A DNA stretch of 64,000 bases. Source: Chiloscyllium plagiosum. Lineage: Eukaryota. The notes beneath the pieces were generated by a model. The model was not told the origin of the DNA, did not search any database, and worked only from the letters and a program-made list of their open reading frames with translations. Of the stretch, positions 10,674-58,584 are shown one piece after another. The stretch is taken from assembly GCF_004010195.1 (NCBI RefSeq), contig NC_057756.1, positions 839,805 through 903,804 on the forward strand, read 5' to 3'. Made by a program: the position numbers and the translations under genes. Position 1 is the stretch's first letter. The number at the start of each line of letters is the position of its first letter.

Positions 10674-10709
10674 AATTAAGTGACTGCCAAGATAAAGTAA
10701 AAGATCTAG
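10674..10709 (+). CDS. Micro-exon (36 nt, phase 1-1): ELSDCQDKVKDL
   Basis: Branch-like tactgac, then tgtcacctttttatgtttcag|AATTAAGTGACTGCCAAGATAAAGTAAAAGATCTAG|gtgggc. The donor is identical to that of exon 34018. Confidence 0.85.
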
Positions 10710-11139
10710 GTGGGCAATTACTTCGCATCCACAAGCAGATTTTCACGGACAAATACTATTCCAGCTCAACCCATTCCTAAGCAGATTCAACGATCATTCA
10801 GAAAATATAAAGCAATATTCAGTACTGAGTGATGAACATTGCTTTATATATGCGGTAGGTCTTTAAATTTCATTCGTAAACTGAAGTGATAACAGTGGCT
10901 AAGAAAACCTGAATATATTTTAAAAATCACCACGCGATCCTTGATGCTTAACTAATCGCTGTGGGCCAGCCACACATTGAGCACTTCGATGAATCTAATT
11001 TGAATCTTCATTGTCTAAAGAGAACTACCACAATTTATGGCAAATTATTATTAAGAATCGTAAGTTTCTCATGCCAGTGAATAGTTGCAGTTTGCAGTTT
11101 TTCCCATTGTCTAACAACCTCTGTTATTCATACACTAAT

Positions 11140-12600
11140 ATATTGAACATGCCGGAAATAGTCCTGAAAATGTGTGCTCAAGAACTTGCCGCTCCCCTAG
11201 CCAAGCTCTTTCAGTACATTTACAACACTGGCATCTACTGACAATGTGGAACATTGCCCAGGTATATCTGCACACAAAAGGCAGGACAAATCAAATTCAG
11301 CCAATTACCACCCAATCAGTCTACTATCCAGCATCAGTGAGTGATGGAAGGGATCATCAATAGTGCTATCAATTAGCACCTGCTCAGCAACAACTTGCTC
11401 AGTGACACCCAGATTGGGTTTCGCCAGAGTCACTCAGCTCCAGATCTCATGACAACCTTTGTTCAAAAATAGACAAAAGAGCTGAATTCCAGAAGTGAGG
11501 TGAAAGTGACAGCCCTTGATATCAAGGCAACATTTGACTGAGTAATGTATTAAGGAGTCCGGGCAAAACTGGAATCAATGGATATCAGGGGGGAAACACT
11601 CCACTGTTTAGAGTTATATCTGACACAAAGGAAAATGGTTGTGGTTTTGGAGGGTCAGTCATCTCAACTGCAGGACTGTAAGAGTTCATCAGGGTAGTGT
11701 CCTCGGCCCTGTAATCTTCAGCTGCTTCAGCAATGACCTAAGGTCAGAATTGGGGCTGTTTGCTTATATTGCACAGTGTTCAGCATCATTTGTCACTCCT
11801 CAGTTACTGAAATAGTTCATGATCAAGTGCAACAAGATCTGGACATTATCCACGCTTGGGCCGACAAATAGAAATAAACATTTGTGCCACAGAAATGCCA
11901 GACAATGATCTTCACAAATAAGAGGTACTCTAACAAAGCTCTTTGCATTCAATGTTGTTACCATCACTGAATCCCCCACTATCATCATCCTTGTGGTTAT
12001 CATTCACCAGAAACTCAACTGAATTCATCACATAAACACAATGGCTACAAGAGACTAGGGATACTGTCACGAGTAACTGACCTCCTAACACCACAAAATC
12101 TACCAACCATCTACAAAGCACAAGTCAGGAGTGTGATAGAATACTCTCCACTTGCCTGGATGGGTGCATCTCAATCAAAACTCAAGAGGCTTGACACCAT
12201 CCAAGACAAAGCAACCTGGTTGATTGGCTCCACATATAAAACATTCAATCCCTCCATCACCGGCGCTCACTATCTACTAGATTCACTGCAGAAATTCGCC
12301 AAAGATCCCAGATAGTACCTTCCAAACCCACGAACGCTTCCATCTAGAAGGGCAAGGGCAGCAGGTACTTCGGAACACCAAGCCACTCACGACATTTTCT
12401 TGAAAATATATCGCCGTTCCTTCATAGTCATTGGGTAAAAATCCTGGAATTCCCTTGTTACCAGCATTGTGGATCAACCCACAGCAAGTGGACTGCAGAA
12501 ATTCAAGAAGGAATCTCTCCACCATCTTCTCAAGGGCAAATAAGGACGGGTTATCAATGCTGGCCAACGAGAGACGCTTAAGTCTCACAAAAGAATTTTA
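11140..12600 (+). mobile_element. CR1/L2-group LINE (distinct subfamily): RT and 3' end, decayed
   Basis: VLKMCAQELAAPLAKLFQY, ALDIKATFD and IEYSPLAWMGASQSKLKRLDTIQDKA; 3' end ggactgcagaaattcaagaagg...cttctcaagggcaa. Confidence 0.85.
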
Positions 12601-12720
12601 AAGAATCATCTTTATAAGCACTATAATAACCACATGGAATTACATGGAGACTTCATCCTTTTAATAATACCCTTTACAATTTTATTTAAAAAAGATGCTT
12701 TGTCTATTCTATGTTCATAG

Positions 12721-12747
12721 AGTCAAAGATAAAAGAAAAACAGACAG
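12721..12747 (+). CDS. Micro-exon (27 nt, phase 1-1): ESKIKEKQT
   Basis: ctttgtctattctatgttcatag|AGTCAAAGATAAAAGAAAAACAGACAG|gttgtt. It keeps the heptad register between the 36-nt exons on either side. Confidence 0.8.
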
Positions 12748-15218: not shown

Positions 15219-15254
15219 AACTGGAGAAATGCCAAGAAGCTTTGAAAGAAGCAG
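15219..15254 (+). CDS. Micro-exon (36 nt, phase 1-1): ELEKCQEALKEA
   Basis: cttcacaatattgcag|AACTGGAGAAATGCCAAGAAGCTTTGAAAGAAGCAG|gtgagt (perfect donor). Confidence 0.88.
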
Positions 15255-15280
15255 GTGAGTATCTCCATTGCTATCTATTG

Positions 15281-15728
15281 AGATTGAAAGACTGGAGCGA
15301 CTGGGCTTGTATACCCTTGAGCTTAGAAGACTGAGAGGGGATCTGATTGAGACATATAAGATTATTAAAGGACTGGACACTCTGGAGGCAGGAAACATGT
15401 TTCCACTGATGGGTGAGTGCCGAACAAGAGGACACAGCTTACAAATATGGGGTAGATCATTTAGGACAGAGATGAGGAGAAACGTCTTCACCAAGAGAGT
15501 GGTGGCTGTGTGGAATGCTCTGCCCCAGAGGGCAGTGGAGGCCCAGTCTCTGGATTTATTTAAGAAAGAGTTGGATAGGCCTCTCAAGGATAGTGGAATC
15601 AAGGGTTATGGAGATAAGGCAGGAACAGGATACTGATTGAGGATGATCAGCCATGATCATATTGAATGGTGGTGTAAGCTCGAAGGGCAGAATGGCCTAC
15701 TCCTGCACCTATTGTCTATTGTCTATTG
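15281..15728 (+). mobile_element. Young-looking 5'-truncated CR1 3' end
   Basis: Uninterrupted frame ERLERLGLYTLELRRLRGDLIETYKI...WNALP...FKKELD, then a 3' UTR and a ctattgt-repeat tail. Confidence 0.92.
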
Positions 15729-15817
15729 TTGTTGCAACAGCTGAAAAGTTAAGTTTATAATATCAAGCCTGAACAATACAATAAGGAACCAGACTTCCAT
15801 TTAAAAAAAAATGATAG

Positions 15818-16793
15818 AAATCACGCAAAACGAGGTTATAATCCAACAGATTTATTTTAGAGGCACTAGTTTTCGAATCGCTGCTTCTTCATCAAGTTGT
15901 TGTGGAGCAGAATCATAAGACACAGGAGTTGTAGCAACAAGATTGCAGGGTAATGGAATGTAATGCTAAACAAATTTAGATTACGTCTTTCATCTTTTAG
16001 AAAGATAATTTCAGTTTTGGTTCTTTCATGTGTAAATCCCAGAACTTTCTTAAAGTTACATTCTCAAGATATCTTTAACACCAGGTGCCATCACAGCTTA
16101 GATAATCCATTGAAGGTGTGAACTAAAGGTCCGTCTGTGTCCTGGTGTACAGAACCTTACATGGATTTATGCAGTTTTGAAGCAAAATAAAATGTAATTC
16201 TGCAAGTACAAATTCACCACATAAACCTATGTGTTTATGCATGCAGGTTAGACCGAGAATGTGTGTGCACATGAGGCTGTGAGCGCCTGGGAGGGTGTGT
16301 TTCCAGGTGTACGTGTGTGAATGTAATCGGGTAGAAGTCTGTGAGAGGGTGCGTGTGTGGGTGTGAGTGTGGGGAATGCATGCATGAGCCTATGAGAGAC
16401 AGCTTGTGTATGAGAGAGGGTCTGCGTGAATGTGTGGGTCTGTAGGAGTGTGTGTGTGCGAGAGACAGAGAGCGAGAGAGCGAGTGCATAATGCAGTGGG
16501 GTCACCTGTAGTTTGACGTGAATCCAAGGTCCCAGTTATGGCCATCCCCATGGGTACCAAACTTGGTTATCAGCCTCTGCTCGGCCATATTGCATTGTTG
16601 CCTGTCCCGAAGCCGACCTTGGAGGATTGTCCCCAAAGGACCAAAGCCAAATGTCCCGGACTAGGAGGGATCACTCCAGGCTGGTGATTGCTTTGTGGTG
16701 TTCATTCATCCATGACCAGAGCCTCTGCCTAGTCTCGCCAATGTACCATGCTTCTGGTCATCCTTGTCTGCAGTGTATGCGATAGGAAACGTT
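15818..16793 (-). mobile_element. Penelope-like element 3' part: GIY-YIG endonuclease, CA/CT-rich tract and terminal repeat
   Basis: The minus strand near 16735-16796 reads ANVSYRIHCRQG*PEAWYIGET (GIY-YIG). The terminal repeat at 15818-15900 matches those at 44381 and 50075. Confidence 0.8.
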
Positions 16794-16947
16794 GGCGGCA
16801 CGGGGGCTCAGTGGTTCGCACTGCTGCCTCACTATACCAGGTCCCCAGGTTCAATTCCAGCCTCGGGCGACTGTCTGAGTGGAGTTCGCACATTTTCCCT
16901 CTATGTGTATGGGTATCATTTGGTTGCTCCGATTTCCTCCCACAGTC
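16794..16947 (+). mobile_element. HE1-like SINE, 5' half
   Basis: ggcggcacgggggctcagtggttcgcactgctgcctcac...ggttcaattccagcctcgggcgactgtctg with Pol III A and B boxes. Confidence 0.85.
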
Positions 16948-16969
16948 GATTTTGGCCAACATTGTCTAG

Positions 16970-17075
16970 AAAAGCTTTGACAAAGGGCCAGTTAGACTCG
17001 AAACGTCAGCTCTTTTCTCTCCTTACAGAAGCTGCCAGACCTGTTGAGATTTTCCAGCATTTTCTCTTTTGGTTC
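16970..17075 (+). repeat. Short Penelope-terminal-type repeat with decayed hammerhead motif
   Basis: ttgacaaagggccagttagactcgaaacgtcagc...gctgccagacctgttgagattttccagca. Confidence 0.65.
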
Positions 17076-17139
17076 TAGAAAAGGATGCTTGCCTGCAATT
17101 TAAATCCTATGACCATAAGGATGACTGTCAAATCAGTTA

Positions 17140-17530
17140 TGTGTTAGTGACAGTTTGCCGTCTAAAGTGGCCAAGTCAGGCATGCAGTGGATTTGTTTGG
17201 ATGATTACACATCCACCAGCACTCAAAAAGCATAGCATAATCCATGGAAAACCAACCTGTTTATTACCGTTACATAAACAATCTGTCATTCCTGCCATTG
17301 AAACTGCATAATCGAAGCAGCAGCCTCTGGACTTCAACTGCAATTCTGACGTGGAGCTATATTGCCATACCTTCCCAAATACAGTGCAAGGAACCCGTTT
17401 CCTACCAGCATACATCGGTGAAATGGACGGCAACTATTCTGAAATGCACTTAACTGCTGCTTTTTCAAGGAAAATTGGGAACAGATAAAAAACGTTGGCC
17501 CAGGTACCGAATCTCAGAATCCAGTATGAT
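17140..17530 (+). mobile_element. Highly decayed 3' part of the same LINE family as 11140-12600
   Basis: ggatgattacacatccaccagcactcaaaaagc... and ttttcaaggaaaattgggaacagataaaaaacgttggcc parallel 12158-12570. Confidence 0.5.
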
Positions 17531-17747
17531 TTTTGTTAGTTTTATAAAATGAATTTTGAGTCACTGTTCCCGCTTCTTGCACCATGAAACGGTTGCACCA
17601 ATTTCCACAGACCATCTCTATGTTTCCAAAGAGCATCGTTATAGCAGCAATCCGGCACCGGTTTTAAAGACACCAAATGGTATCTAGTGATCCCATTTGC
17701 AGTCAAATTACAACACATTGTGGATTCCTGGCATACAACGAGATCGA

Positions 17748-17878
17748 GGGATAGTGAGGACTGCAGATGTTGAAAAGTCAGAGTCGATAAAGGGTACAGT
17801 TAGAAAAAGTACAGCAGGTCAAGCGACATCGGGGGAGCAGAGAAGTTAGCGTTTCAGGTCTGTATCTTTCATCAGGGC
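17748..17878 (-). repeat. Short Penelope-terminal-type repeat (hammerhead-like)
   Basis: The minus strand reads ctgatgaaagatacagacctgaaacgcta...ctgcagtcctcact, the same family as 24800-24919. Confidence 0.65.
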
Positions 17879-18256
17879 TCAATCAACAAGAGATCTATCA
17901 TCTCATCTCATGTATCCGACCTTGTTGCATTGGCAGTTCAAATATTTTCTCTTTTAAGGTCATATTGTTGAAACTTGCATTCTAAAATCTTTCAAATATT
18001 GATGTTGAATTTCTAAAATCCAGCCTTCACTCGGCTGTTCTGCAAATGACAATAATTCACAGTACAACCAACATTTCTTATGGCCCATGTGCTTGTTTTG
18101 GCAATCACGGAAAGTTATACATTTTGTGTACCATTCTTTTCCACAGCACAATGACTTTAGTATGCACACACACAAACAAGCACATATGTGATTTTTTTGG
18201 AAAAAAAAACTGTCAGCACGTTAGGCAGTATCTGTGGAGAGAAGCAGGGTTGATGT

Positions 18257-18995
18257 TGTTACGATACTGCGGTGAACTCATCTGTTAGTGAAACCAAACA
18301 CTCCGAAAATCTCACATCGGATCGTAATCTGAGTGACAGAGAACTCCCAAAATCCTGTGTTGAAAGAAAATAATATAAACGTATTCTTAAATTATAACGT
18401 GAACATTAAGCAACAACTCTAAGCCCCCTTTCTCTTAACTACTTATTATCTGCCTTCAACTCTGTAAGTATTTTACTGTTCCAGGAAAACACTTATTAAA
18501 ATTACATGAAATTAATTTCAAAACCATACAGTAACTGTCTTTCTTCTTCCAGCTAAAGAACTCCCTGGGTCGTCTTCTGTCTTTTTACTGTGAAGATGTC
18601 TCAATTGAAAACGTATCTTTGATAGAGAGTGTTTCAATGGCAGTTACTTTCTTCATGGCAGTTACACTGCCTAACATTCAAACTGCCAGCTTTTTTATCG
18701 GCCAGCATTGGATCTCCCTAACATTGCTTCGAGGTTAGCCAAACAATGAATTCAATTTCGACTGGGTTTTAGTATCCTAAGGCATAATTGAAACTGATTA
18801 GTTAAATTCGAATTATTGTCGAAACAGTGACAGACTCAGGTATGTATTTCACACCTAAATGTTATGTATTTTCAATTTTTTTCCGTACACTCTGAGACTA
18901 CCAATTATTCATATGCCAGGTGCTTGTAAACTTTTAGTTCAGAACAGCATTTACTCTCTCTTAATCGTACAGTCCACGCCTTCCACTTCATGACA
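18257..18995 (-). repeat. 3' LTR of the Gmr1-type element
   Basis: Colinear with 23673-25241 (shared blocks aaattaatttcaaaacca, tgtctttcttcttccagct, ttcagaacagcatttactctctct); PPT at 18996-19005. Confidence 0.88.
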
Positions 18996-21900
18996 CCTCC
19001 CCCTTAATAAAACAAACTATCTTAGCAAAAAGATGGATTCTTTTCTTCTAATTCTTAATCACATTACAATAAATTACACTGGTCATTAATATAAGTTCAT
19101 GTTAATTTCGCCACACACACATTTATATATTAAATATATTATATAAGATATATACATATATAGCATTTGCATCTATTCAATCTAATCTATACTTTATCCT
19201 TTAAATCCTCAATAACACATCTGCTATCACATTCTTACAAACAACATGTACAATTTGAACATTAAGATTCTGTAACATAAGACTCAAATGAAATAGTCTC
19301 ATATACTTGGCTAAGATCATTTTAAGAAGTTAAGAGGTTTGTGATCTTTGCACATCAAATAAACATTAAAATGTTGCAAGGCCAATAACAAACTCAATAA
19401 TTCATTTTCGATAGTAGAGTATTTTCTCGAGTGGGTGTTGAGTTTCTTTGAAATGAAGAAAAATTGCTGTTCAATTCCATCACCAACTTTCTGGAGCAGT
19501 ACAGGTCAAACTCCTATATCGCTAGTATCAATTGCATCTTTGAAGACTTTCAAAAAGATTGGTGTTGGTAAAACTGGTGCGATAGTTAACACTGCGTTAA
19601 CATTCTCAAATGCCCCCTGGCATTTCTCTATCGACTTACACTTTGTGTTCTTTTTCAGTATATCTGTTAGCCATGCCACCAAGCTGCTGAATTTTGCAAC
19701 AAACTTCTGCTAGAATCCCTTTTGTATCAAAAATGGAAACATCACTTTCTGAAAGGATGGCCATGGAAACTCTTCGATGACCTTCGTCTTGGTTTTCCTT
19801 GGTGTTAATCTTTCATGAACGACGTTATTTCACAATAGCTTATCCACTACCTTTGTGCATTCTGTTTCCTTTAAGTTTATTATGTGTTTCACTTCTCATA
19901 ATTGTTCAGAGAGTTCTACCAACTCTCATGTGATCTTTTCACAACTCGCTGAAGATCACTACATCACTAAACTGCACAATTTGTTTATCAAAAGACCGGC
20001 CTGTTCATGAGTCTTTGGCATGCGGCTAGTTCGTTCTTCATTCCAAAGGGCATCACTTTGAATTAATATAGATCATTTGTGGTTACTAATGCAAAAACTC
20101 ATTTCTCCTTCTCTGATAAAGGTACCTGCCTATAACCATACATTAAGTCCAACTTTGTGATGCACGTGGCTTGTCCAAATTCCTTTATACAGTCCTCCAA
20201 TCTTGCTGTTGGGCATGGGTCCGATTTTGATGCAGCATTGACCTTACAATAGTCCACACAAAATCGGTGAGTCCAGTCAGGTTTGGATACTAACATGGGC
20301 GGTGAACTCCACTCACTCTGACTCGGTTCAGTGATACGTTCTTTCAACATTACTTCCTTCTGGACCTGTGTGGCTTTGAAAGGATTAAGACTGTAGTGGT
20401 ATTGTTTTCTCAGAAAAGCACTCCCTACTTCCACCTCATGCACAACCATATTATTTCTCATCACCTTATTCCTGCATATGTCCTCATACTACTGCAACAA
20501 ACCTTTCAACTGGATTATTTGTTCTTGAGACAAGTAGTTCACGAACCTGTCCAAATACTCAAGGACTTCCTCATTGCTAACGTATTTTGAGGTACATCAA
20601 ACCTCAAAACAATTGGATTTGATTTCTAACTCTGCGGAGCAGTAACTAGATCATTTACATGACTCAACTTTTTCTCAATTTAAAGGCACTACTAAACCTG
20701 GCTTTGACGGAATCTCCAACCACTAGTAACAAAACTAATTCACCACCCCCAGGAAAACGTCTGAATTTCAGAGGATTTTCTTTCATCTTGCACCTGCTTC
20801 GATCTATGCTGTGCCCTTTTCAGCTGCTGTTCAGCTAACTCACCTATCGATTAAATCTCTCCCTCACCTCAGGTACATAATCTAACTGTGAGATCTTCGA
20901 AATTTGTTCTTCAATTCCTCTTCATTAATTTTAAAGGCCCTCTCACTTCACATCCGAATATTAACTCAAAGGGAGTAAACCAAGTGGATTCGTTTGGGGC
21001 ATCTCAAATGGTGAACATTATGAATGGCATACTTTAATCCTAATTATTCGGGTCATCCTGACGGTACACTCTTAACATGGTCTTCAGGTTCTGATACCAC
21101 CTTTCTAAAGCTATGTGCGATTCAGGACGATATGCACTTGATTTAAAATGCTGTGTGCCTAAGCTATCCATGACTTATCTAAATAGCCCACCAGTAAAAT
21201 TAGACCCTTGGTCTCACTGAATCTCACTGTGTAGCTGATACCACATAAAGAAAGCTACTAACACCACTATTACCCTTTTTGCTGGTAGTGGAATTGCCTC
21301 TGGAAATCTGGTGGACTCACCCATTATGTTGAGCAAGTGCTGGTTTCCACATTTAATTTTACATAGGGAACCTACAAAATCGATCATAAATCGCGCGAGA
21401 GGTTCTTCGAATGCAGAAATTGGCAACAAAGACGCTGGGTTTATTAGTGCCTTTGGTGTACCTATCATTTGGCATGCATGACTTGTACGGCAAAAGTTAA
21501 CCACACCCTGGTGCAGTCCAGTCAAATAGAAATAATTTTGAAGCTTTGCCTGACTCTTTGTTACACCGAGTGACCGGCTACCGGAAATTCGGGTGCTACC
21601 CATCACATCCCTGATTGTATGCGACAAGCAACACAATCTGAAGGGCATCTGCCTATTTCTTCTCTGCACTAGCCTACTGCGGTCTGTATTTCTTAGGATC
21701 CTATATTTAAGATAATAACCCTCAGGAATACATTCTGATTCCTTTTCTGAGTTTGCATTAATCTACATATATCATTATTGTCTCGTCTTTCTGTTGTGAT
21801 CCATTCACCTTTCAGGATTAAACACTTCTGCCTAACCTTTTCCTGCTCAGGTTTTTCGTGCATTATTAAACAGGGTGCCCGTTAACTGAAGCTCAAATCC

Positions 21901-23672
21901 TTTGTCTTTCTCTTTAGTTTTTGCTTCGTGCTGTGACATACGGTCTTGAATCTTATTACTACACTGTCTGGAAATATTTTAGGGTATTTTTCTTTTAACT
22001 CTTCAGTTCCCTGGTCTTCCTATGGCTTCTCCACAGCAAGGGGCGTCACTCCCACCTTGGATCCTGCTAAAACGTTCCCAAGAGCAAACTATGTTCCTGG
22101 AAATGTAACTCTATCAATTACTCCCACTTTTACTTCTCCAGTCTTGAGTTGGCACTCCAACCGGATCTTACCAGTAGAACGCTAAATCTCTGACCATCTG
22201 TCTCACAAATTGCCACTCACCGATAACAGCTCAGAAAGAGTACAAATATGTTAAACACTTACTATTAGAAACTAATTACATCCCGTATATCTCAAAATTA
22301 TAATCTATACCCCATCTTCCCCATTCTTTCTTAGTAAAGTGTACCTACAGGGGTGAAGTCGTGATAGAGATCAGGCACTAACTCCATACCCGGGCTCTGC
22401 CGAGGCCGTGCACTCCCTGGCAGCTCCTCGACTTTTCTTCGGGCTTCCTTTACCACTTTCACTTATGGCACTGGCTTAGCCTATTTTACCTGAGCGTATT
22501 CCATAGTGTGTTTCTTTAACAACAGGCACCGTGACTTTACGTGTCCCACATTAAAACAGTGGAAACAACCATGAGGACCTTCATTTACTTTTCACCCTTT
22601 TAGGCTTCTTCTTGAACCCGTGGTAAACTACTGCCAGTGTGCTTTAGTCTTTTGTTTTAGTCCCAACTTCTATTCCTCACAGGATGAAATTCTTGCCAGA
22701 AGCTGATATTTGCTTTATGAACTATTGCATATCCATCTGACGCCTCTGCTATTTTTCTCACTTCTTGAAGTTTTTGTTCAGCCACATGGGTTCTTATCAC
22801 CTCTGTAAGAGAGATTTTAAACTCATCCAGCAGAATCATCTTTCTTAGAGCCTCACAGATCTTACCTATTTTTAGGGCCTGCACGCATTTCTCAAATGAC
22901 TGTGTTTAATTCTTTTGAACATAACACACGTCTGACCTCATTCCTTCTTTATGTTTCTGAACAGGTGTCTATACAATTCTAGTACTAGTTCATATGCACT
23001 CAAAATGCCTTGTGTGACAGCTGCATAACCGTTTCACCCATCATATGACAACGCTGAAAATATCTCCCTATTTCTGTCTACCAGTTTAATCTGATCTAGC
23101 ATTACGCACAAGTTCTCTAAACACCCCATATACCTAGCCAATTTTACAAATGCAATAAAGAAGGCTTCAACATCTTTCTCATCAAATTGTGGCAATATTT
23201 TAACATATTTGTATACATCACTGCCTTCTCTCTTCATCTCCATCGTGTTAACTTCATTTCCTGACTAATGCACAACTTCTGGAGTTCAAATGCTTCCTCC
23301 CTTTCTCTTTCTCCATCCTCTCTCTTTCGCTTTGCTCAGCTAAGAACCTTCTCTCTTTTTCTTCTCTCAATCTTACTCTTTCTTCTCTGTCTTTCTCTCT
23401 CTCTTTCATTCTCTCTCTTTCTTGCTCTCCTTTTTTCTCTCTCCGCTTTCTCTCTGTCTTTCTTCTCTTGTGGCGCTATTTTTCCCTTTCTTTATATTCT
23501 TACTCCATTTGCCTCAAGTATAATTTACGTTTTTTAGTAAAGTTGTAGAACACTAATCGGCAAGTGCTTAAATCTGCTGGGATATATCGTACCCGAAATC
23601 TGTACAAATCTGTCCAAATCTCTAACTGGATCTGTCTACATCTGTCCAAACAACGGACATGAGTCACCATGC

Positions 23673-25670: not shown

Positions 25671-25680
25671 GAATCTACAT

Positions 25681-26867: not shown

Positions 26868-26894
26868 AAGAGAAGCTGAAAAATAACGTGAAAG
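26868..26894 (+). CDS. Micro-exon (27 nt, phase 1-1): EEKLKNNVK
   Basis: ttcttactccttaacag|AAGAGAAGCTGAAAAATAACGTGAAAG|gtagtt; resembles exon 57323 (EERLKQKDK). Confidence 0.82.
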
Positions 26895-29282: not shown

Positions 29283-29309
29283 AATTTCAGGAGTACAAGG
29301 AAACTTGCA
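29283..29309 (+). CDS. Micro-exon (27 nt, phase 1-1): EFQEYKETC
   Basis: ttttgccttgattttcatccag|AATTTCAGGAGTACAAGGAAACTTGCA|gtaagt. Confidence 0.8.
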
Positions 29310-32545: not shown

Positions 32546-32607
32546 GGAGTCACTCCTACTTATATTTTCTATATTTCCATGCTACTGTCTTTTCCTTTCT
32601 CCTGCAG

Positions 32608-32634
32608 AAACTGATCTGGAACAAAAAGATTCAG
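32608..32634 (+). CDS. Micro-exon (27 nt, phase 1-1): (K/E)TDLEQKDS
   Basis: ctgtcttttcctttctcctgcag|AAACTGATCTGGAACAAAAAGATTCAG|gttttt: strong acceptor; the 3' end AAAAAGAYTCAG is shared with exon 46732. Confidence 0.82.
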
Positions 32635-44290: not shown

Positions 44291-44420
44291 TTGATTCATT
44301 AATTTAGTGCCTCAGGCATACCTGCTGCTTCGACATTTAAAGTGTTATTTTAGAAACCACGAATCTGCCATTCGCTTCCTCACACACCAGGTTATAGTCC
44401 AATAGGTTTAATTGGAAGCA

Positions 44421-44455
44421 TACTAGCTTTCGGAGCACCGCTCCTTCATCAGGTG
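44421..44455 (-). ncRNA. Minimal type-I hammerhead ribozyme motif with intact core, inside a Penelope terminal repeat (44381-44462)
   Basis: Minus strand cac-CTGATGA-A-GGAGC-ggt-GCTCC-GAAA-GC-TA-gta: CUGAUGA, a 5-bp stem II, GAAA, a palindromic AGCU mini-stem III and a CUA site. Stem I is short. Confidence 0.6.
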
Positions 44456-44875
44456 GTTGTGTATCGTATATCTGATTTAGTATAGAACAAATTTATCTGT
44501 TAATCCTGAATGTCAGTCCGTTCTCATATCTCCATTTGCTTGATGTGTTTAAATTTCTGTCAAGATGTTAATTTAACTTTGATTTTTTTCAACCAAAAAA
44601 TCGATTATTCCGCAAACATGGAGAATATATTTGTTGAGTAAAAGACCTGATCTCCTTTTCTATTTGTGTTGGGAAGAGATGTAACAGGAGGGACATGAAT
44701 TTAATTCGAAATATAGCATTAATTTCTTCCTCATTTTCTATTTGCCTACTTATTAAATATAATTGACGTCCTTTGTCTTTTGCATGTTATTTGAAATTAA
44801 ATGATGGCAATGACTGACTATGTACAATGTCGCCTACAAATGCACTTTTGACTTTACTCTCCAAATTTTCCACAG

Positions 44876-44890
44876 AAAAAAGAAAGAAAG
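44876..44890 (+). CDS. Micro-exon (15 nt, phase 1-1): EKRKK
   Basis: ctttactctccaaattttccacag|AAAAAAGAAAGAAAG|gtacgg. Confidence 0.75.
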
Positions 44891-45069
44891 GTACGGAAAT
44901 ATGCCTGGAAGAAGAAGCTTGATTTCATTCTATTAGAATAGGACTTTGAGGTAGAAAGGACTTTCAAGTGGTGGAACATTAGCTGCAAATTATAAACTGA
45001 TTGGCATCTATTTAATTTATATTGGGCTTCTGCTATCCCAGTTGGTTAGACTATTAGTATGCAAACAGA

Positions 45070-45240
45070 TTAATGCTAACAACTTGGATTAAATTCTCAC
45101 ACCAGTTGAGGTGCCATGAGGGCTATCCTTCTCAACTTCTTCCCTCACCTGAGGCGTGGTGTCCCTCAGGTTCAACCAGTATCATTCGTTTCTGTTTTTA
45201 TGTAAGAACAGCCATATGGTCTAGTCCTATGACAACTTAC
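45070..45240 (+). mobile_element. Short SINE-like interspersed repeat
   Basis: ccttctcaacttcttccctcacctgaggcgtggtgtccctcaggtt hairpin and an agccatatggtc...ctatgacaactt tail; family assigned from memory of shark repeats only. Confidence 0.4.
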
Positions 45241-46140
45241 AAGTGTAATGTGTTAAACCATAAATGAAATGTACAATAGGAGTTTCAAAAAAAATATCAA
45301 TTTAGCACTTACAGCTGAGGTAAGGTTCTACTGATCCTACTTTTATACCATGATGGTATGGTCCCGAGATCCGGCTTTAACACCTACCTGCTCGTCGGTA
45401 TGTCATAACATTCTGAACAGCTCTATTACAATACCTTTCGTAAGTTTCAGCTACACTGGTGGATCTTTCGACTGTTGCATTTTCTTTTTTGCTAGGTTCC
45501 TCATTTGCACAAAACGGAAACGACTCATTATCCCTTCCCTTCTAAATTTCCTGTTCGTAGAAATTAAATAAAAATTTCAAAAGACGTTACTCGACAGTGT
45601 TAACGTACTTAAATTCAGCCTTCAACCTTCCTTTAGAACCAACAGCTCCTTGATTTCAATGTTAAATGCGTTCATCACAACTTAGTATTTTCTAGCGGAT
45701 GTTTTTGTTTATTTTAAGAAAGAAACGTGTCCATAACTCAGCTTCATAATTTCCTACATTTTGTACTCAGAACTGTCCGCTCAGGAGTACATACAAGTTC
45801 CCAATATTAAACTAACTCAGCGTAAATTTAACTGCATATCTTTGCACTTCGTAGATGCTGCTAGGAGTAATAATGGAACTTCCAACATCCAGTAACAAGC
45901 ATAGTTGACGATGGTTGATGTATGCTTGTTCAGCATGAATTTTTTAAAAAGTATGTTATTGAGTAGTGAATATTGAACCTGATTTTTATCGCGAACAAAC
46001 TGAATGATTGATTTTTTAAAAATCTGTACATCGATAATGTATATTAATAAGATGTATTATATGATTCTGCTGAAGCACGCTATTGAAGATACAACCAGTG
46101 TGAAAATGTTTACTTTCAAATTGTTCCCACGATTATTCAG

Positions 46141-46167
46141 AATTGGAAGCAAAGGAGAAACTTGATG
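46141..46167 (+). CDS. Micro-exon (27 nt, phase 1-1): ELEAKEKLD
   Basis: ttgttcccacgattattcag|AATTGGAAGCAAAGGAGAAACTTGATG|gtaaga. Confidence 0.82.
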
Positions 46168-46731
46168 GTAAGAAGATATATTGTCCAATGAAATGTATCA
46201 ATTTCTGTAGAATATTGACTTGCAAATAAATTATCATTGATGTGATGCCTCATTGATCTTTTTGTTAATCTTGGCTATTCTTCTATAGTACAGTCTACGT
46301 GTTCTGGCTCATCCATAATAAACAAAAGACAAGACAAACTTGTCTCATTTATAGATGCTGTTGAAGTTGTATGCTATTACATCATTATTAAATGTGCACC
46401 TTGTAATTAATTGACGTTGCGATGAATAGAATACATATTGGGGGGCTACACATAGACTGATGCACAATAGGCTCTAAAACCAAGTAATATACTTGATTAT
46501 TTCTTTTGACGTTTCTGATGGTGATCTACATTATGATCCAGTGTGGGCACACGTTAATTTTACGTTACTCATCTTTGCCTATTCTTTGCAACATGAGTAC
46601 ACAGCATTTTTCTATGAGGTCTTTGTTTCTGTGAATCTGCCTAATGTGTCTCCCATTCATATGATGCAATCATCAGAAGGCATGCCGTTAAATATTCCAC
46701 TTCATCTCATTTATAATTTATTAAATTTTAG

Positions 46732-46758
46732 ACGAAGAAACTCGGGAAAAAGACTCAG
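46732..46758 (+). CDS. Micro-exon (27 nt, phase 1-1): DEETREKDS
   Basis: tttataatttattaaattttag|ACGAAGAAACTCGGGAAAAAGACTCAG|gtaaca. Confidence 0.82.
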
Positions 46759-48288
46759 GTAACATATTGAAAAAAGTGCCTCTACTTTTTGAAAATGTAG
46801 TTTCTATCTCTTCATTGCCTCAAATCATTAGAAGAGATCAAACAACATGATTGCTTATATTTTAAAAATAAATGCTTTAAAAACAAGATCTCAGGCAATC
46901 ACATGCAAAAAAAAGCAGTAATCTTGCACTGTTGGGAAACTTGGAGGAAAGATCCTAGTGAACTTTTCTAGGGGCTGTCCTGACCTAATGGCAATGAGAC
47001 TGGGCTTGTAATGCAGAACCAAAGGCTAATACTGCCAAAATGCTACCATTAAAATAAATGAAATAAAGTCCATTGTATTGAATCTGATTAGGAAATATCT
47101 TTTAGAGAAATGAATTTACTATCCTTACATTTGCTCGGGTAAACGTGTGGATTAAATGTTGTTCTGACCTGAATTGCACGCCCCATGAACATCAATAAAG
47201 AGAAAAGAAAATTGAAATCCACGAAATCGCAGGAGCATCTGTGATGCTGTGCGATATAAGCTGGCTATGGGGCAATTCACACCTACACAAGAGAGGACCT
47301 TAAAACATCAGGGTCATTGCCTAAACGAAAACACTAAATGGGCTTACCCCACCATAGCAGAATTAACACACCCGTTTTTGATACCGTGGTCACATTTGAT
47401 AATATGTATTGACAGTGTTCGAAAATGGAGGATAAATTAAGTACAGTCCCTACCATCAGGTAATCCTCATATTACCCCAGGAAAGGTTCCAAGTTAAATG
47501 GAGCAGGGCGAGCAGGATGGAGGTCCAATAGCACTTCGATTATTCTTTCCTGTCATCATATTTTGGACAATTATTTAGAGGGTAACACTTGCACTAGGAG
47601 CTCTATAGCCTTGGTAGCCAAAAAAAGTGATAATTTAAGATACACAGAAGCATTCCATAGGCAGTCACATTACTCAAAGCCGGATAATGCAAACTTGTTC
47701 TCTTGCCACCTGAATGAAGTGTAATCTTTCCTCGGTTGAAAGTAGTCTGAAAAACAAGGGGAATAAGTAAAACTGTTCGGAATATTGACAATTTCACCCA
47801 TATATTAAATTCTTATTTATTGTCGTTCCTTCGACTAGTTAATGCTATTACCTCCATTACTTACGTGCCTAAAGTGTTCAAGCATTAATCTCCACCGAAG
47901 TTCCTTATGCAAGGTTGGCAATTCCCACTATCAAGGCTCTCAGGACTTAAGTTCTGCCTTTTTGCAAAAAGTCTCAGGATTATCAGTGACTGCAGGCAGT
48001 TCTACTTGGTTTGGGGCTGAATCCAAATATATGTTTGAGGTAGTGCAGGATTTGAATTAAGTGTAATACCCTACTTCTTTGTCCTAGGTACAGGGTGAAC
48101 ACTTATCGTACTGTTAAATTGTCTCGATGCATCAAGTTGCTGAACCACGTTGCTAATGTGTTCAAGAGTTGCATGTCTCACCTTCCAATGACTTCTATGG
48201 TATATTAAGTCAGGATCAGCAGAATGCATTTCTTTTTTTCTGTAGAATTGGAAACAATGAGCGCTTTTGTTTTCTGTATTCCCTACAG

Positions 48289-48324
48289 AAATAGCTGCTT
48301 TAAATAAAGAATTACAAGATTCAG
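48289..48324 (+). CDS. Micro-exon (36 nt, phase 1-1): EIAALNKELQDS
   Basis: ttttgttttctgtattccctacag|AAATAGCTGCTTTAAATAAAGAATTACAAGATTCAG|gtgagc. Confidence 0.9.
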
Positions 48325-48887
48325 GTGAGCAAGAGAAGCAAACTGAACGCCGGTACTCACATGACTGTTTAGTCCCAACAGTTAATCTGACATGCTACAT
48401 CGTCACAGTCAATCTGTGCCAAACGATTTTATTTTTGCCTGTCCTTCAAACATATCACTTCAAATAACAAAATAAATCAAACATACATTGAAAGTGAATG
48501 CGAAAGTCACAGAATAATTCCCAGTTTACAAAAAAAGGTAATAGGTTAAATAAAAAAATATTTTTCCAAAATCGATTGAAATTTTAGAATCTGACCAAAA
48601 ATACTCTCCACGACGTTAGAGGAAACGATAAGATCGAAACAGGGTTCCATTTTCAGTTGGCGATGGGCCTAAAAAAAGGTAAATGAAGTAAAATTAAGTA
48701 TCAGACTGCAAAGCGTTGTAGTTTGCCGACAATTAAAAAAACTGTTGCTTGTGTGAACTGCGGGAACTTCTCTGACAGTGCTATTTGGTTCTGATTGATT
48801 TTAAATTTTGTAGTAATTTTAAAAAATATATATAATGAAGACACATCTCTTTCTTTGTCTTAGCAGTTCGCATAGCGAACAGATGAG

Positions 48888-49240
48888 TATAGAATTCATA
48901 CAGTGCTGCAAGTGACGATTTGGCTGAAGAGACAGCAGCGGCACTCTGGAGAGCTCCCCAACACCCCAGACCCATACTACACCTTATATCGAAAATCCCA
49001 CTTTAACCATGCTAATTTACCTAGCGTAGACATTTAAGGATATAACGAGCAACTTTGCATGGCTAATGCAAATAACCTGCACATTTTTGAATATGGGATA
49101 AAGTTCGAACACTTGGCAGAAACCCTTGCAGACATGCACAGACCATGAAAACTCAACACAGAATGTGACCCACTTTTATAATAGAACCCGTGTCCTTGGT
49201 AGTGTGAGGCAAGAGTGCCAATCATTGTGCTACCACTGCT
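48888..49240 (-). mobile_element. HE1-like SINE, near full length, decayed
   Basis: Reverse complement of the head (gtgtgaggcaagagtgccaatcattgtgctacc) and the body (gcatggctaatgcaaataacctgcacat, gaaacccttgcagaca). Confidence 0.75.
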
Positions 49241-52570: not shown

Positions 52571-52712
52571 TATCAACCAGCTGATGTGCTTCCTTTCATT
52601 TACCTCAAACAGTTGATCCTCACTTCCTTGCGCCCCATGCTTTTGACATTGATGGACTATTACTTCAAATTAATTTCATTCTCCCTGCACACTGCTCTAT
52701 GTTGCCAATGCA

Positions 52713-55700
52713 AAGAACATAGAAAATTTACAGCCCACGAACAGGCCATTCGGCCATTCAAGCCTGAGTCGATACAAATCCACCGTCTAAACTTGTCACC
52801 CAATTCCTAAGCATCTGTATCACTCTGCTTCCCACCTACCCATGCATCTATCCAGACACATCCTAAATGAATCTACCGTACTTGCTCTACTACCTCTGCT
52901 GGCAACGCATTCCAGGTACCTACCACCCTTCATGTAAAGGACTTGCCGCATATATCACCCTTAAACCTTTCACGTCTCACTGTGAAAGCGTGACCTCTCA
53001 TTATTGAATCCTTCACCCTTGTAAAAATGCTTATCTCTATCAACCCTGTCTATACTCTGCATGATCTTGTAGACCCCAAACAGGTCCCCCCTCAATCTCC
53101 TTTTTCTAATGAAAACAAACCTAATCTACTCTGTTCAAAGGTAGCACCGTCCATGCCAGGCAACATCCTCATAAACCTTCTCTGCATCCTCTCCAAAGCG
53201 TCCACATTCTTTTGGTAATGTGACGACCAGAATTGTACACAGTATTCTAAATGTGGTCGAACCAATGTCGTGTACAATTTTAATATGACCTTCCAGCTCT
53301 TACACTCAATATCCTGTCCGATGAAGGCAAACATATCAATGCCTTCTTGACCACTCCATCCACCTGTGCAGCAACGTGCAGGGTAAAATGGACATGAACT
53401 TCCACATCTCTCTGCTCATCATTTTTTCCAATGCTCTTCCAATTACTGTAAAAGTCACTCTAGAGTTAGACTTCCCAAAATGCATCGCCTCACATTTGCC
53501 TGTATTGAAGTCCATCTGCCACTTCTCTGCCCAACTCTCCAGTCTATCTATATTCTCCTGTATTCTTTGATTGCCCCCTATGCTTTCGGCTACTCCACCA
53601 ATCTTCGTGCCATCTGCATACTTACTGATCATATCAACAATGCCCTCTTCCAGATCATGCATGTATATCACAAGCAACAGTGGCCCCAGCAGTGATTCCT
53701 GTGGAACAACACTGGTCACCTTTCTCCATTTCGAGAAATTCCCTTCAGCTACTGTCTCATGTTGCTCAACCAGTTTTTTATCCACCTAGCTAGAACACCC
53801 TGCACACCATATGACTTCACCTTCTCCATTAGTTTACCATGGGGAACCTTATTAGACACCTTACTAAAGCCTATGTATATGACATCTACAGCCCTTCCTT
53901 CATTTCTCAACTTGGTCATTTCCTCAAAGACCTCTATTAAGTTGGTATGGCACGATCTCCCCCACACACAACCGTGTTGCCTAGCACTGATACGCTCATT
54001 CTTTTCCAAACATAAATACCTTCTTCAGCAATTTTCGCACCACTGAAGTCAGGCTCGCTGGTCTGTAGTTACCCGGAATATCCCTACTACACTTCTTGTT
54101 CAGTGGGACAACATGAGCAACCCTCCAGTCCTCCAGCACCTCATCTGTGGTTAAGGATGCTACAAAGATATCTGTCAGGGTCACAGCTATTTCCTCCATC
54201 CCCCCTCCGCCTCAGCAACCTGAGATCGATCCCATCTGGTCCTGGGAAGGTGCCCACCTTTATAACCTCAACCTACCCAACACATCTTCCCTACTTATGT
54301 CAACGTGATCCACAGTAATCAAACTTCTAACTCTAATCTCAACATTCTTTATGTCCCTATCCTCAGTGAACACTTATGCAAAGTAATCATTCAGAATCGC
54401 ATCCATTCTCTCAGGTTTGACACACAGCCTTCCTTCATTATCCTTTAGTGGACCAATCCTTTCGCTAGTTACCCACTTGCTTCTTATATAAGAATAAAAG
54501 ACTTTTGGATTCTCCTTAATTCTGTTCGCTAAAGCTATTTCATGACCTCTTTTTATCCCGCCTGATTTCTCACTGAAGACTGGTCCTACTCTTCTGATAT
54601 TCCTCCAAGGTCAGTTCTGTTTTTAGCTGCCTGGCCTTTATGTATGCTTCTCTTTTCCTCTTGGGTAGTCAAACGATTTCTTCTGACATCCATGGTTCAC
54701 TAATCTTGCTTTTCCGATCCGTTGCTTTCAACGGGACATGCCTATCCTGCACTATCTTGAACCTATCTTTGAAAGCCGCCCACATATCAAATGTGCACTT
54801 CCTTTCAAATAGCTGTGTCCAATCCACATTTCCCATCTCCTGCCTAATTTTGATATAATTGGCCATGGCCCAGTTTAGTATTCGTCCCTTAGGACTACGC
54901 TAATCTTCGTCTACCAATATTTCAAAACTTAAGAATTGTTGTCACTGTTCCCAAAGAAATCCCCCACCACAACTTCTACCACCTTGCCTGCCTCATTCCC
55001 CAACACCAGGTCCAATATGACGACTTCCCTTGTCAAACTATTGACATAATGCTCTAGAAAACTTTCCTGGATGCCTCTTACAAATTCTGCACCACCCAGA
55101 CCGCACACACTAAGTGTATCCCAGTCAATGTTGCGAAAATTAAAATATCCCATCACCACCACCCTGTTGCCTCTACATCTTTCCATAATCTGCTTACTCA
55201 TTTGTTCTTCTACCTCATGCTGTCTATTGGGAGGGCTGTAATAGATCCCCAGCAATGTAACTGTACCCTTCTTATTTCTCAGCTCCACCCATAATGCCTC
55301 ACTACAAGCCCTCCATAGTGTCCTCCTTTAGCACAGCCGTGATATCATCCCTGACCAGCAATGCAACTCCTCCTCCCTTCTTTTACTTCCCTCACTGTCT
55401 TGTCTGAAGCGTCTAAATCCTGGAACATTTAGTTGCCAATCATGCCCTTCCTTCAACCAAGACTCTGTGATTGCAATGACGTCATACTCCCAGGCACCAA
55501 TCAAAGCCCTAAGTTCATCAGCCTTACCCAATATAGTCCTTGCATTAAAGTATGTGCATTTCATGCCATCAGTCCTTTTGCATTCATCTGTCCTTTGCTA
55601 ACTGTTCCCCTAATTAATGATATATTCATGATTCTTATAGTCTCCAGTTTCCACCACGCTGTCTACTTGTCTTCTCTTCTGGTTCACAGCCACCTGCCAC

Positions 55701-56930
55701 ATTAGTTTAAAACCTCCACAACAACCGTAGCAAAAACTCTACCAAGGGCATTAGTTCCAGTCTGGTTCACATATAGGCCATCCAACTTGTAATAGTCCCA
55801 CCTTCACCAGAACTGGTCCCAATGTCTACCAAATCTGAACTTCTCCCTCCTAAGCATCCCTCAAGCCACGTATTCACTTTGCCTATTTTTTTTTTCATTT
55901 CTACACTGGCTAGCACGTAGCACTGGTAGTAACCCTGAGACCACTACCTTTGAGTCCCTCTTTTTTAACTTCTCTCCTAGCTCCATGAATTCTGCTTTCA
56001 GGACCTCATCTCGTTTTTTACTTACATCGTTGGTACCTATATGCACCAAGACAACTGGGTATACATCGTCCCATTTTAGAATGCTCTGCAGTCGATCGGT
56101 GACATCCCCACCCGAGGACCTGGGCGGCAACATGACATTCGGGAGTCCCGTTTTCGTCCACAGAACCGCCTATCTACTCCACTTACAATAGAATCCTCCA
56201 TGACTATGGCCCTACGAGTCTTTTCCCCGCCCTTCAGAACAACAGTGCTCGCCACATTGCCATGATCCTGGCAACTGCAGCCCTCCGTGGTGAGCCATCT
56301 CCCTCAGTAGTATCCAAAATGGTATACCTGTTTTGGAGGGAGATGACCGCAGGGGACACCTGCACTGCCTTCCTACTCGTTTTCTGCCTTTTGGTCATCC
56401 ATTCACTGTCACCCTCAGCAATTCCACACTGCGGTGTGACCAGTTCACTAAACATACTATCCATGACCTCCTCAGCATCGTGGATGCTCCATGTGGTCAT
56501 ACAAGAGCTGCAGCTGGACACACTTCTTGCAAGTCTAAGAGTCAGGACAGTCAGCCACGTTCCTGAGCTTCCACATCAAGCAAGAGGCACATGCTACGGC
56601 TCTGAGGACCCCTGCCATTATAAGCCTTAGCTTTATAATAATACACTAAAACCAAACAATGCACTTAAATATATGAAAGTAAAGGAAGAGAAGAAGTAAA
56701 AATCTTACCTTATAGTCTTTTTCTTTTGGTTAGAGGAGGGGGTGGTGGTAAGGCGATACTACACGTGCAGTATCTCTGGTTTAGCCTATGCCCAACTATA
56801 TACTAAGTCCTTTTCTTCCCGGCAACCCCCTGGTCTCTACATCACCTCTGATCTGTCTCTGCTGCTCCCACACAGGAAAAAGAATATCATATGTCCTGGC
56901 ACCAGAGAGAAAAAAAACAGGCATGGTCTT
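52713..56930 (-). mobile_element. Near full-length CR1 LINE (5' UTR, ORF1 with SGNH esterase, ORF2 APE-RT, 3' tail), inactivated
   Basis: ORF1 VVLVHIGTNDV...KVVVSGLLPV; EN KCTYFNARTILGKADEL...IAITESWL and GNSDNN; RT GNYRPASLTSVV, VPQESLLGPLL, SKYADGTK and VRPHLEYCVQFW. The 5' boundary is approximate. Confidence 0.93.
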
Positions 56931-57322: not shown

Positions 57323-57349
57323 AAGAAAGATTGAAACAGAAAGATAAAG
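57323..57349 (+). CDS. Micro-exon (27 nt, phase 1-1): EERLKQKDK
   Basis: tgtttattctttgtctgaaaaaaaacag|AAGAAAGATTGAAACAGAAAGATAAAG|gtaagt: perfect donor; an A-run separates the pyrimidine tract from the AG. Confidence 0.8.
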
Positions 57350-57611
57350 GTAAGTTCTCTGAATATTTTTTAAACAACATCAGAATTAAGTTGCTTTCAT
57401 TTCCCTCCAAGGCTCTTAATTGGCATGTTCACAAGTTTAACTAATTGCATTTTCTTTCAGATATCTTGTAGATTGATGCATGTTTTTATGGGCGGATGCC
57501 AATACTGAACAAAAATGTGATGAAGTGCTATCCTTACAAAGGTTGGGGGGTGCGGGGGAGGTGGGTTGGCATGCAAAAAATCAAATACGACTTGCACAGA
57601 TTCGTTCTCGG

Positions 57612-57720
57612 ATGGAGCTGATGAAGGTTACTGGTCTCAAAACATTAACGCTGATTTCTCTCCATATACGCTGCCAGGCCCGCTGAGCTTTTTCCAGCAT
57701 TCTGTGTGTTTTATTGAGAT
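57612..57720 (+). repeat. Penelope-terminal-type short repeat with decayed hammerhead motif
   Basis: ctgatgaaggttactggtctcaaaacattaac...gctgccaggcccgctgagctttttccagca. Confidence 0.6.
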
Positions 57721-58548
57721 TTTATAGTTTCTGTTTGAATACTTTGCCCAAACTGATGACCACTTCAGTTGGCTGGCTGGATCAATGCATCATTGAATAG
57801 TTCAACAATTCTGCTGAGTAATATGAGCATTCTTTAAACAAAACATATATTATGGAATTTTTCACCACCTGTATCAAGCGAAATTACAGTGCAAATTTCC
57901 CATTTTCTATATTATTTAATCTAAGCAAAACGAGCTGGTTACATATGCTCAAAAATGACACTGAAGAAATGGCTTTATTGAAATGTGGAAAATAATGATA
58001 AATATTGTCATTATGAATACACACCATCATGAAATTAGTAGTCTGCAGATAGATAATGACGTGGACTCTTCATATTGTTTTCATTGTGTTGATGGTCAGG
58101 AAACTCTGTCATTCTCATCTCTTGGGATTGCCATGTGCTGACATGATTGCTATTAACATTCAAACAGTTTGTCTGGGTAATAGACATACATTTTCTGCAC
58201 CATCAATTCCTGAGTTTGAAAATTGGAAAATAACTTTAGAAGGCCAGAGAAAGCCATGTGTGTGCTCTAATTTCAAGAGTAATCTATATCTGTTAACCAA
58301 ATGCTTAGTAACATGGAACATGGATTGCAAATCATTACAAAATGAAACTTATAAAACTAGTAAAGATTTCATTTTTCATCCAGATTTGATGTGGAGCTCC
58401 AAAAAACTATACGTAAAGGCAGCGAAACAAACACAATTTTCGCAGTTTCAATAGATTACTTTAGTTTGCAATAGCATAAGACATTTTTTGAATGCGTAAT
58501 AGACAAATGACTCATCTCACTTGATAACATGTATTATTCACTTGTCAG

Positions 58549-58584
58549 AGTTAGAAAAGTTGAAAACTCGTCTTGCTGATGTTG
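58549..58584 (+). CDS. Micro-exon (36 nt, phase 1-1): ELEKLKTRLADV
   Basis: gtattattcacttgtcag|AGTTAGAAAAGTTGAAAACTCGTCTTGCTGATGTTG|gtaaga; the ELEK start is shared with exon 15219. Confidence 0.85.

What the first reader, a model, noticed from the sequence alone, without database searches (positions are those of the whole stretch)
10674..58584. Exon lengths obey mod-7 arithmetic: a splice-tunable molecular ruler?
Seen: 36-nt (12 aa) and 15-nt (5 aa) exons are both 5 mod 7, and 27-nt (9 aa) exons are 2 mod 7. So 36+27 gives 3 heptads and 15+27 gives 2 heptads. The run 36-15-27-27 (34018-46758) is exactly 35 aa and keeps the register (I62 to I97). No single exon is a whole number of heptads, unlike 21-nt BG exons. 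Inference: any exon can be skipped in frame, but only complementary pairs preserve coiled-coil register. Paired skipping would change rod length, while single skipping would insert a register break.
Basis: inference. Interest (0 to 1): 0.7.

Follow-up and report, generated by a model that had tools for sequence, protein, structure and literature searches.

The report
Two-exon grammar of giant shark rod
The tiny segments are likely exons of a huge, largely unannotated shark gene predicted to encode a roughly 1,400-residue helical rod ending in a B30.2 binding domain, and their length arithmetic likely records gene growth by copying two-exon modules rather than a splicing-controlled ruler.

Summary
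The arithmetic is right: 13 phase-1 segments of 36, 27 or 15 nt lie at 10674-58584, and I62 to I97 is 35 aa. They sit inside a ~525-kb bamboo-shark gene of about 146 predicted mini-exons (1,443-aa coil) ending in a B30.2 exon; four paralogues and a 1,697-aa chimaera protein share the design. The real rule is two alternating exon classes (126 of 145 junctions), not complementary lengths. 36+27 (21 aa) is the common module and was duplicated as a pair in DNA. The 15-nt exon is a shortened 27, followed by a 36 in 5 of 6 cases; 36+15 (17 aa) and 27+27 (18 aa) are built-in register shifts that cancel, one of them inside the window. Four 21-nt exons exist. Single skips would mostly break register (113 of 144), but 17- and 18-aa pairs often rejoin cleanly. 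No RNA covered the exons; predicted isoforms of relatives differ by single 6-, 7- or 9-aa pieces, never 14 or 21. The splice-tuned ruler is unsupported. The scan noted this gene and a paralogue before in neighbouring windows.

The parts
1107..1121 (+). predicted 15-nt mini-exon, class E (upstream of the finding's span); the array continues upstream of the window to about -369,535
   Evidence: score 23.8
10674..10709 (+). predicted 36-nt mini-exon, class G (core residues at 2, 5, 9, 12)
12721..12747 (+). predicted 27-nt mini-exon, class E
15219..15254 (+). predicted 36-nt mini-exon, class G
26868..26894 (+). predicted 27-nt mini-exon, class E
   Evidence: score 26.2
29283..29309 (+). predicted 27-nt mini-exon, class G; its junction to the next exon shifts the register by +4
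32608..32634 (+). predicted 27-nt mini-exon, class E (weak donor); a 500-N assembly gap follows at 33156-33655
44876..44890 (+). predicted 15-nt mini-exon, class E (shortened 27e); junction to the next exon shifts by +3
46141..46167 (+). predicted 27-nt mini-exon, class G; junction to the next exon shifts by +4
46732..46758 (+). predicted 27-nt mini-exon, class E
57323..57349 (+). predicted 27-nt mini-exon, class E (weak acceptor)
58549..58584 (+). predicted 36-nt mini-exon, class G; beyond the window the array continues to three 21-nt exons at +150016..152200 and the B30.2 exon at +154715..155235 (L021:715-1235), counted from the window's first base

Best explanation
The segments are likely exons of one ~525-kb shark gene predicted to encode a ~1,440-residue coiled-coil rod capped by a B30.2 domain, and their mod-7 lengths likely come from tandem copying of two-exon modules in the DNA under selection on the protein, with most exons likely spliced in as a fixed chain. 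The grammar (shown in the predicted catalogue): class G exons (36 nt, or a 27-nt type) put core residues at codons 2, 5, 9 (12); class E exons (27 nt, or 15 or 21 nt) put one at codon 4; G and E alternate. G36+E27 gives three clean heptads. Inferred: the protein dimerises through the rod (about 210 nm if continuous) and holds two B30.2 binding domains at its tip, as a cytoplasmic or membrane-anchored tether or sensor; its length is set mainly by exon number in the genome, as in chicken BG1, with occasional single-exon skipping on top.
For: 146 predicted exons join with the B30.2 exon into 1,616 aa without a stop (135 by threshold, 12 added by a gap search dropped because it made a junction stop). 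Hydrophobic fraction 0.92, 0.91, 0.91, 0.66 at codons 2, 5, 9, 12 of 53 36-nt exons. G/E alternation at 126 of 145 junctions, shuffles mean 73, max 95 of 5,000. Modules: G36+E27 43, G27+E27 12, G36+E15 4, G27+E15 1. DNA duplications that include introns: a 36+27 pair (457 nt, 69%), a 21-nt triplet (about 80%), and a block of 27-nt exons. 13 shifts of +4 and +3 between -90 kb and +46 kb never drift by more than one (p 0.037, chosen after seeing the data). Four paralogues carry the same exon types in differing numbers. The chimaera model XP_042192744.1 (1,697 aa) shows the same 12+9 units joined (28 profile hits, some overlapping, against a shuffled mean of 2.9, max 9). In chicken BG1, tail length varies by a four-exon repeat in DNA rather than by splicing (PMC5043582, passages).
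Against: No RNA read lies on any exon in the runs laid, so splicing is not shown. Gap filling favoured exons that fit, which is partly circular; before it only 28 of 52 distances between 36-nt exons were 0 mod 7. 19 of 145 junctions still show +2, +5 or +6 shifts, so exons are missing, misclassified or the rod has hinges. Most introns have lost detectable likeness, so pair duplication is seen directly only once. One duplicated block (27-nt exons) is not clearly register-neutral, and the chimaera's 40-aa tandem repeats are not. The 5' end was not found. Predicted isoforms in relatives show that some skipping occurs.
Confidence: 0.65

Rival explanations
1. One reading: regulated skipping of complementary exon pairs (36+27, 15+27) tunes rod length in whole heptads, a splice-set molecular ruler.
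For: All exons are phase 1-1 and frame-neutral; 93 of 145 adjacent pairs sum to 0 mod 7 against 4 of 146 single exons; single skips mostly give +2 or +5 breaks, so selection could favour paired skipping. The shark paralogue pC has an extra four-exon block of exactly 35 aa against the ray model P0169, which fits register-neutral gain or loss, though in DNA.
Against: The 4 internal isoform differences seen in two relatives are single pieces of 9, 6, 9 and 7 aa, none 14 or 21 (database predictions, other family members, two of the four in the linker before B30.2). 15+27 in that order occurs once in the gene. Partners are separated by introns of median 2.4 kb, up to 19 kb, with no coupling element looked for or found. 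Genomic duplication already explains the arithmetic.
Confidence: 0.1
2. Exons are skipped often and singly; the transcript pool is a mixture of rods with different lengths and hinges, and register is not protected at the RNA level.
For: Ray isoform X3 lacks one 9-aa piece inside the coil and X2 a 6-aa piece. Several splice sites are weak (32608, 12721, 57323). Chicken BG0 tails show skipped exons and read-throughs in about 26% of sequences (PMC5043582, passage).
Against: The a/d pattern and G/E alternation are strongly kept over 146 exons, which points to selection on the full chain. No transcript of this gene was seen.
Confidence: 0.17
3. The array is not one working gene: it is several genes in tandem, or part of it is dead exon copies that are no longer spliced.
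For: No transcript; the close relative's annotation holds only the 178-aa B30.2 part; the 5' end is unknown; one well-scoring segment would create a stop.
Against: Only one B30.2 exon in 864 kb; no start or terminal exon noticed within the array; one strand, one phase, and A or G at 142 of 146 exon ends; a chimaera model of similar length with the same units exists.
Confidence: 0.08

Closest known systems
Chicken BG genes (butyrophilin family)
   Same: Long predicted coiled coil written in many mini-exons with split first codons; exon number varies by block duplication; some skipping; a conserved cysteine in the rod (PMC5938342 and PMC5043582, passages).
   Different: BG uses mostly 21-nt exons (a few of 18 or 24), 13 to about 38 of them, behind an Ig-V domain and a transmembrane segment, and lacks the B30.2 end of butyrophilins. 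Here: about 146 exons of two alternating classes (36/27 and 27/15), a B30.2 exon, and no Ig-V or transmembrane exon found.
Butyrophilins (BTN) with B30.2
   Same: Heptad stretch followed by one B30.2 domain; the shark domain is 37% identical to Callorhinchus BTN1A1.
   Different: Mammalian BTN tails have only a few heptads (PMC5938342, passage); the Ig domains were not found; the B30.2 falls in a separate clade.
TRIM proteins with PRY-SPRY (RING, B-box, coiled coil)
   Same: Coiled coil followed by B30.2; relatives are auto-named TRIM39-, TRIM58-, TRIM69- or A33-like.
   Different: No RING or B-box found upstream, and no RING motif in the 17 other rows of the clade; the coil is about ten times longer and built of mini-exons.
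Callorhinchus milii XP_042192744.1 ('nuclear-pore anchor-like', predicted, 1,697 aa)
   Same: Same B30.2 clade (long branch), same 12+9 units, similar length.
   Different: An automatic name; it starts with a hydrophobic stretch and basic residues not found in the shark gene, and has 40-aa and 8-aa tandem repeats.

Membership tests
B30.2 (PRY-SPRY) proteins | SPRY domain | tested here: met
   Pfam PF00622, E 1.7e-16, 60.9 bits against a cut-off of 26.3; PRY itself not hit at E 0.001
Chicken BG genes | Tail of many phase-1 mini-exons coding a heptad pattern | tested here: met
   (predicted exons)
Chicken BG genes | Tail exons mostly 21 nt | tested here: not met
   4 of 146 are 21 nt
BG / butyrophilin | Ig-V domain and transmembrane exon upstream | tested here: inconclusive
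   None found by tblastn with Callorhinchus BTN1A1 or by motif in 864 kb, nor by exon and hydrophobicity scans; none in pC or pD; but the 5' end is not located and the region has assembly gaps
BG / butyrophilin | B30.2 groups with butyrophilin B30.2 | tested here: not met
   Own five domains fall in a 22-row clade (100/100) apart from the Ig-bearing rows; 70 of 172 rows used, midpoint root
TRIM (C-IV) | RING and B-box at the N-terminus | tested here: not met
   No tblastn hit with two chondrichthyan TRIMs in 864 kb; no RING motif in the clade's rows, many of which are probably partial models
Coiled-coil dimers | Two-chain coiled coil, orientation | not testable with these tools
   a/d pattern shown; no model of a dimer was obtained
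   No RNA on the exons; 0 of 4 isoform differences in relatives are pairs
   6 of 6 15-nt exons score as 27e-like (log-odds +4.5 to +11.8); followed by 36 in 5 of 6

The most novel reading that the evidence does not exclude
An undescribed family of cartilaginous-fish genes, older than the shark-chimaera split, writes rods of up to about 200 nm in a two-letter exon code in which 17-aa and 18-aa modules place compensating stammers and stutters, and whose length is changed in register-neutral blocks of 21 or 35 residues, in the genome and also by coordinated skipping of exon pairs, giving an adjustable spacer for a B30.2 sensor.
Probability: 0.12. Interest if true: 0.85.

Novelty: new variant of a known kind. 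Interest (0 to 1): 0.45.

Why it matters
The gene family seems to be missed by annotation: the close relative's model holds only the last exon, and I found no paper on it in 8 searches. It is an extreme, natural test bed for how a coiled coil grows exon by exon: exon class maps one to one onto heptad register, so stutters and stammers can be read off the exon order. It also makes a general question cheap to test with one long-read experiment: does splicing of a repeat-exon array respect protein register? The ruler idea itself has no support so far, and the mini-exon tail is known from chicken BG genes.

Tried and rejected
RNA: no RNA holder was listed for window 44000-49000. Laid on the 3' end and on 29000-48999, single-cell run X5 (about 2 in 100 read) covered repeats only, X6 gave no read, and X7 covered repeats only; this is no test of expression. 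Complex prediction for a homodimer of a relative gave no model and no verdict; oligomer state and orientation stay open. P0001 (1,541 aa, top hit) is three TRIMs in tandem, not an orthologue. The LU/Ly6 exons at -482 kb were rejected as the N-terminus because two GPCR genes lie between them and the array. The signal-like start of skate P0163 and the start of catshark P0023 look like intron or LINE sequence read into the model and were not used. Segments at 20873, 30362 and 36574 were rejected (stop in phase 1, or not a multiple of 3). -334153 was dropped (junction stop) and -143287 left out (weak acceptor). A Fourier scan of the whole chain gave no single peak, as expected with register shifts; 10 of 23 windows of 84 aa peaked at 3.48-3.52. 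The second shark-versus-ray block in pC is 30 aa plus an uncertain exon, so it was not counted as 35. ESM Atlas listed long SPRY clusters without RING (1,277 and 1,579 aa) as leads only; one search added nothing. Supplements of the BG papers were not read; they hold the cDNA variant lists that would show whether BG skips are single or paired.

Full report
Observation. The window is repeat-rich vertebrate DNA. On the + strand, 13 short AG...GT segments lie between 10674 and 58584: five of 36 nt, seven of 27 nt and one of 15 nt, all phase 1-1; a further 15-nt segment is at 1107-1121. A generic splice model, run over all lengths from 9 to 60 nt on the 525-kb gene span, gives 31 hits at 27 nt, 34 at 36 nt and 11 at 21 nt on the + strand against 2, 3 and 1 on the - strand; the other 48 lengths average 2.0 (sd 1.4). 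The 15-nt length is not enriched in this test (8 against 7). A model trained on 84 seed exons gave 185 hits at score 18 or more in the gene span against 21 in 864 kb of - strand; the seeds score high by construction.

What it is. The window is G000:C47:839805-903804. Fetching 800 kb around it showed the same segments from about -369.5 kb to +152 kb in window coordinates, followed by a phase-1 exon at +154715..155235 that codes a SPRY domain (Pfam E 1.7e-16). That domain is 98% identical to Chiloscyllium punctatum chiPu_0007878, annotated as a bare 178-aa protein, so the window is likely from a bamboo shark. The catalogue has 146 predicted mini-exons (80 of 27 nt, 54 of 36, 6 of 15, 4 of 21, 1 of 18, 1 of 33): 135 passed thresholds, 12 were added from a gap search and one was dropped because it made a junction stop. 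Joined with the last exon they give 1,616 aa with no stop. Median intron 2.4 kb. No Ig, RING or B-box was found in 864 kb, nor a signal or membrane exon that I could attach. GPCR genes at -451 kb and -432/-412 kb likely bound the 5' end, which remains unlocated.

Family. A search of the genome gave 151 matches, with 150 of 269 candidates scored. The four next-best loci all carry 27/36-nt mini-exons upstream of their B30.2 exon: about 20 in 140 kb, 26 in 130 kb, 28 in 125 kb and 40 in 155 kb, the first, second and fourth probably incomplete. In a tree of 70 of 172 B30.2 rows (the most similar plus named references) the five shark domains and 17 other rows form a clade with 100/100 support; the named rows are from bamboo shark, catshark, skate, electric ray, basking shark and chimaera. 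One member, Callorhinchus XP_042192744.1, is 1,697 aa and holds the same 12+9 units (28 profile hits, some overlapping; shuffles mean 2.9, max 9). Its branch is long and its place in the clade unsure. The design therefore likely predates the shark-chimaera split.

The grammar. In 53 36-nt exons the hydrophobic fraction is 0.92, 0.91, 0.91 and 0.66 at codons 2, 5, 9 and 12, an a-d-a-d pattern; Cys fills codon 5 in 22 of 54. The 27-nt exons are of two kinds: most have the core residue at codon 4 (class E), a minority at 2, 5, 9 like a shortened 36 (class G). G and E alternate at 126 of 145 junctions (shuffles mean 73, max 95). G36+E27 is the main module (43 times). The 15-nt exons are shortened E exons: all 6 score as E27-like in a DNA test that classed 95% of E27 and 9% of G36 exons that way, and 5 of 6 stand before a 36. 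So their equality with 36 mod 7 is a coincidence of number, not of role. Native junction shifts are 0 at 106, +4 at 14, +3 at 6 and other values at 19 of 145; at the +3 and +4 junctions near the window no convincing missing exon was found. Insertions of 4 and 3 residues are the stutter and stammer of coiled coils (definitions recalled; PMC11335187, one passage, says only that they affect oligomer state and orientation). Between -90 kb and +46 kb seven +4 and six +3 shifts alternate so that the imbalance never exceeds one (p 0.037, post hoc, and copies are not independent). It can also be read as continuous heptads with a polar core (K76, E83, D86, K93). The shift at 29283-32608, just before the run, is not closed within it.

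Does splicing use it? All window exons skip in frame without a stop. But a clean junction can follow from removing an adjacent pair of any of the common lengths: 57 of 88 21-aa pairs, 7 of 9 17-aa pairs, 16 of 31 18-aa pairs and 3 of 4 14-aa pairs. Direct evidence is missing: the runs laid gave no exon reads. Indirect evidence goes against pairing: among database-predicted isoforms of two relatives, the four internal differences are single pieces of 9 and 6 aa (electric ray, in the coil) and 9 and 7 aa (chimaera, in the linker). This is a small sample of predictions in other family members. Three DNA samples of one study cover 29000-48999 at about single-copy depth with no exon gain or loss seen; contigs show presence only, and 40 of 87 difference rows were shown.

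How the arithmetic arose. Self-comparison of the gene finds intron-containing duplications of a 36+27 pair (457 nt, 69%), of the 21-nt exon (three copies, about 80%) and of a block of 27-nt exons; other introns have lost likeness. Against the ray model P0169, the shark paralogue pC has an extra four-exon block of 9+9+8+9 = 35 aa with scores above the - strand background; a second extra block is 30 aa plus an uncertain exon, and the ray model may be incomplete. Not all blocks are neutral: the chimaera protein has 40-aa and 8-aa tandem repeats. Growth by copying of modules in DNA, filtered by selection on the coil, explains the lengths without any splicing control. [quoted passage not shown]

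Likely function (inferred). A dimeric rod of about 210 nm (1,443 aa at 0.1485 nm per residue, a recalled value) with B30.2 domains at the tip, acting as a spacer or tether for a binding or sensing domain. The orthologue pair pC and P0169 appears to start directly with mini-exons, which points to a soluble protein, while the chimaera model starts with a hydrophobic stretch and basic residues that could anchor it. No structure model was obtained.

Known or new. Eight searches of the paper library (listings and abstract starts only, apart from the three papers cited) showed no description of this family; most subscription papers are not held. The scan noted the same gene and one paralogue in neighbouring windows; those notes are not independent support. 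It works like a BG or butyrophilin tail but fails the 21-nt test and groups apart from butyrophilins and RING-TRIMs. Verdict: observation confirmed, interpretation partly supported, splice-tuned ruler about 10%. New variant of a known kind; interest 0.45.

Noticed in passing
upstream of the window, window-relative -485841, -481756, -479179 (G000:C47 about 353,960-360,760): Signal-peptide exon plus two phase-1 exons of an LU/Ly6-uPAR three-finger domain (label recalled from the cysteine pattern); likely a separate gene.
   Followed up: partly
window-relative -451 kb (-), -432/-412 kb (+), +218 kb (+), +161 kb (-): GPCR genes about 55% alike flank the array; the copy at +161 kb is fragmented. 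The name GPR139-like is recalled.
   Followed up: partly
window 29292: A>C variant in DNA run X1 inside the 27-nt exon 29283-29309 (Glu to Ala).
   Followed up: no
window 39099-40959: One contig of run X4 lacks 1,859 intronic bases: a likely insertion polymorphism.
   Followed up: no
window about 18290-25200: Decayed LTR retroelement on the - strand in the intron 15254-26868, with terminal repeats about 80% alike (families D6, D8, D10; label recalled).
   Followed up: no
window about 59030-62000 (+) and 52700-56750 (-): A decayed gypsy-like element and a long CR1-type LINE copy in introns (labels recalled).
   Followed up: no
G000:C47:4577504, C47:1296632, C37:22229869, C37:20720070: Four paralogues with the same mini-exon design; two lie on C37, which holds most of the genome's listed B30.2 matches.
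   Followed up: partly
window 36574-36599: Strong acceptor followed by a 26-nt segment that resembles an exon but is out of frame; possibly a dead copy.
   Followed up: no
P0062 (Callorhinchus XP_042192744.1), residues about 905-1010 and 1030-1175: Near-identical 8-aa and 40-aa tandem repeats inside the rod, likely recent exon duplications that do not keep heptad register.
   Followed up: partly
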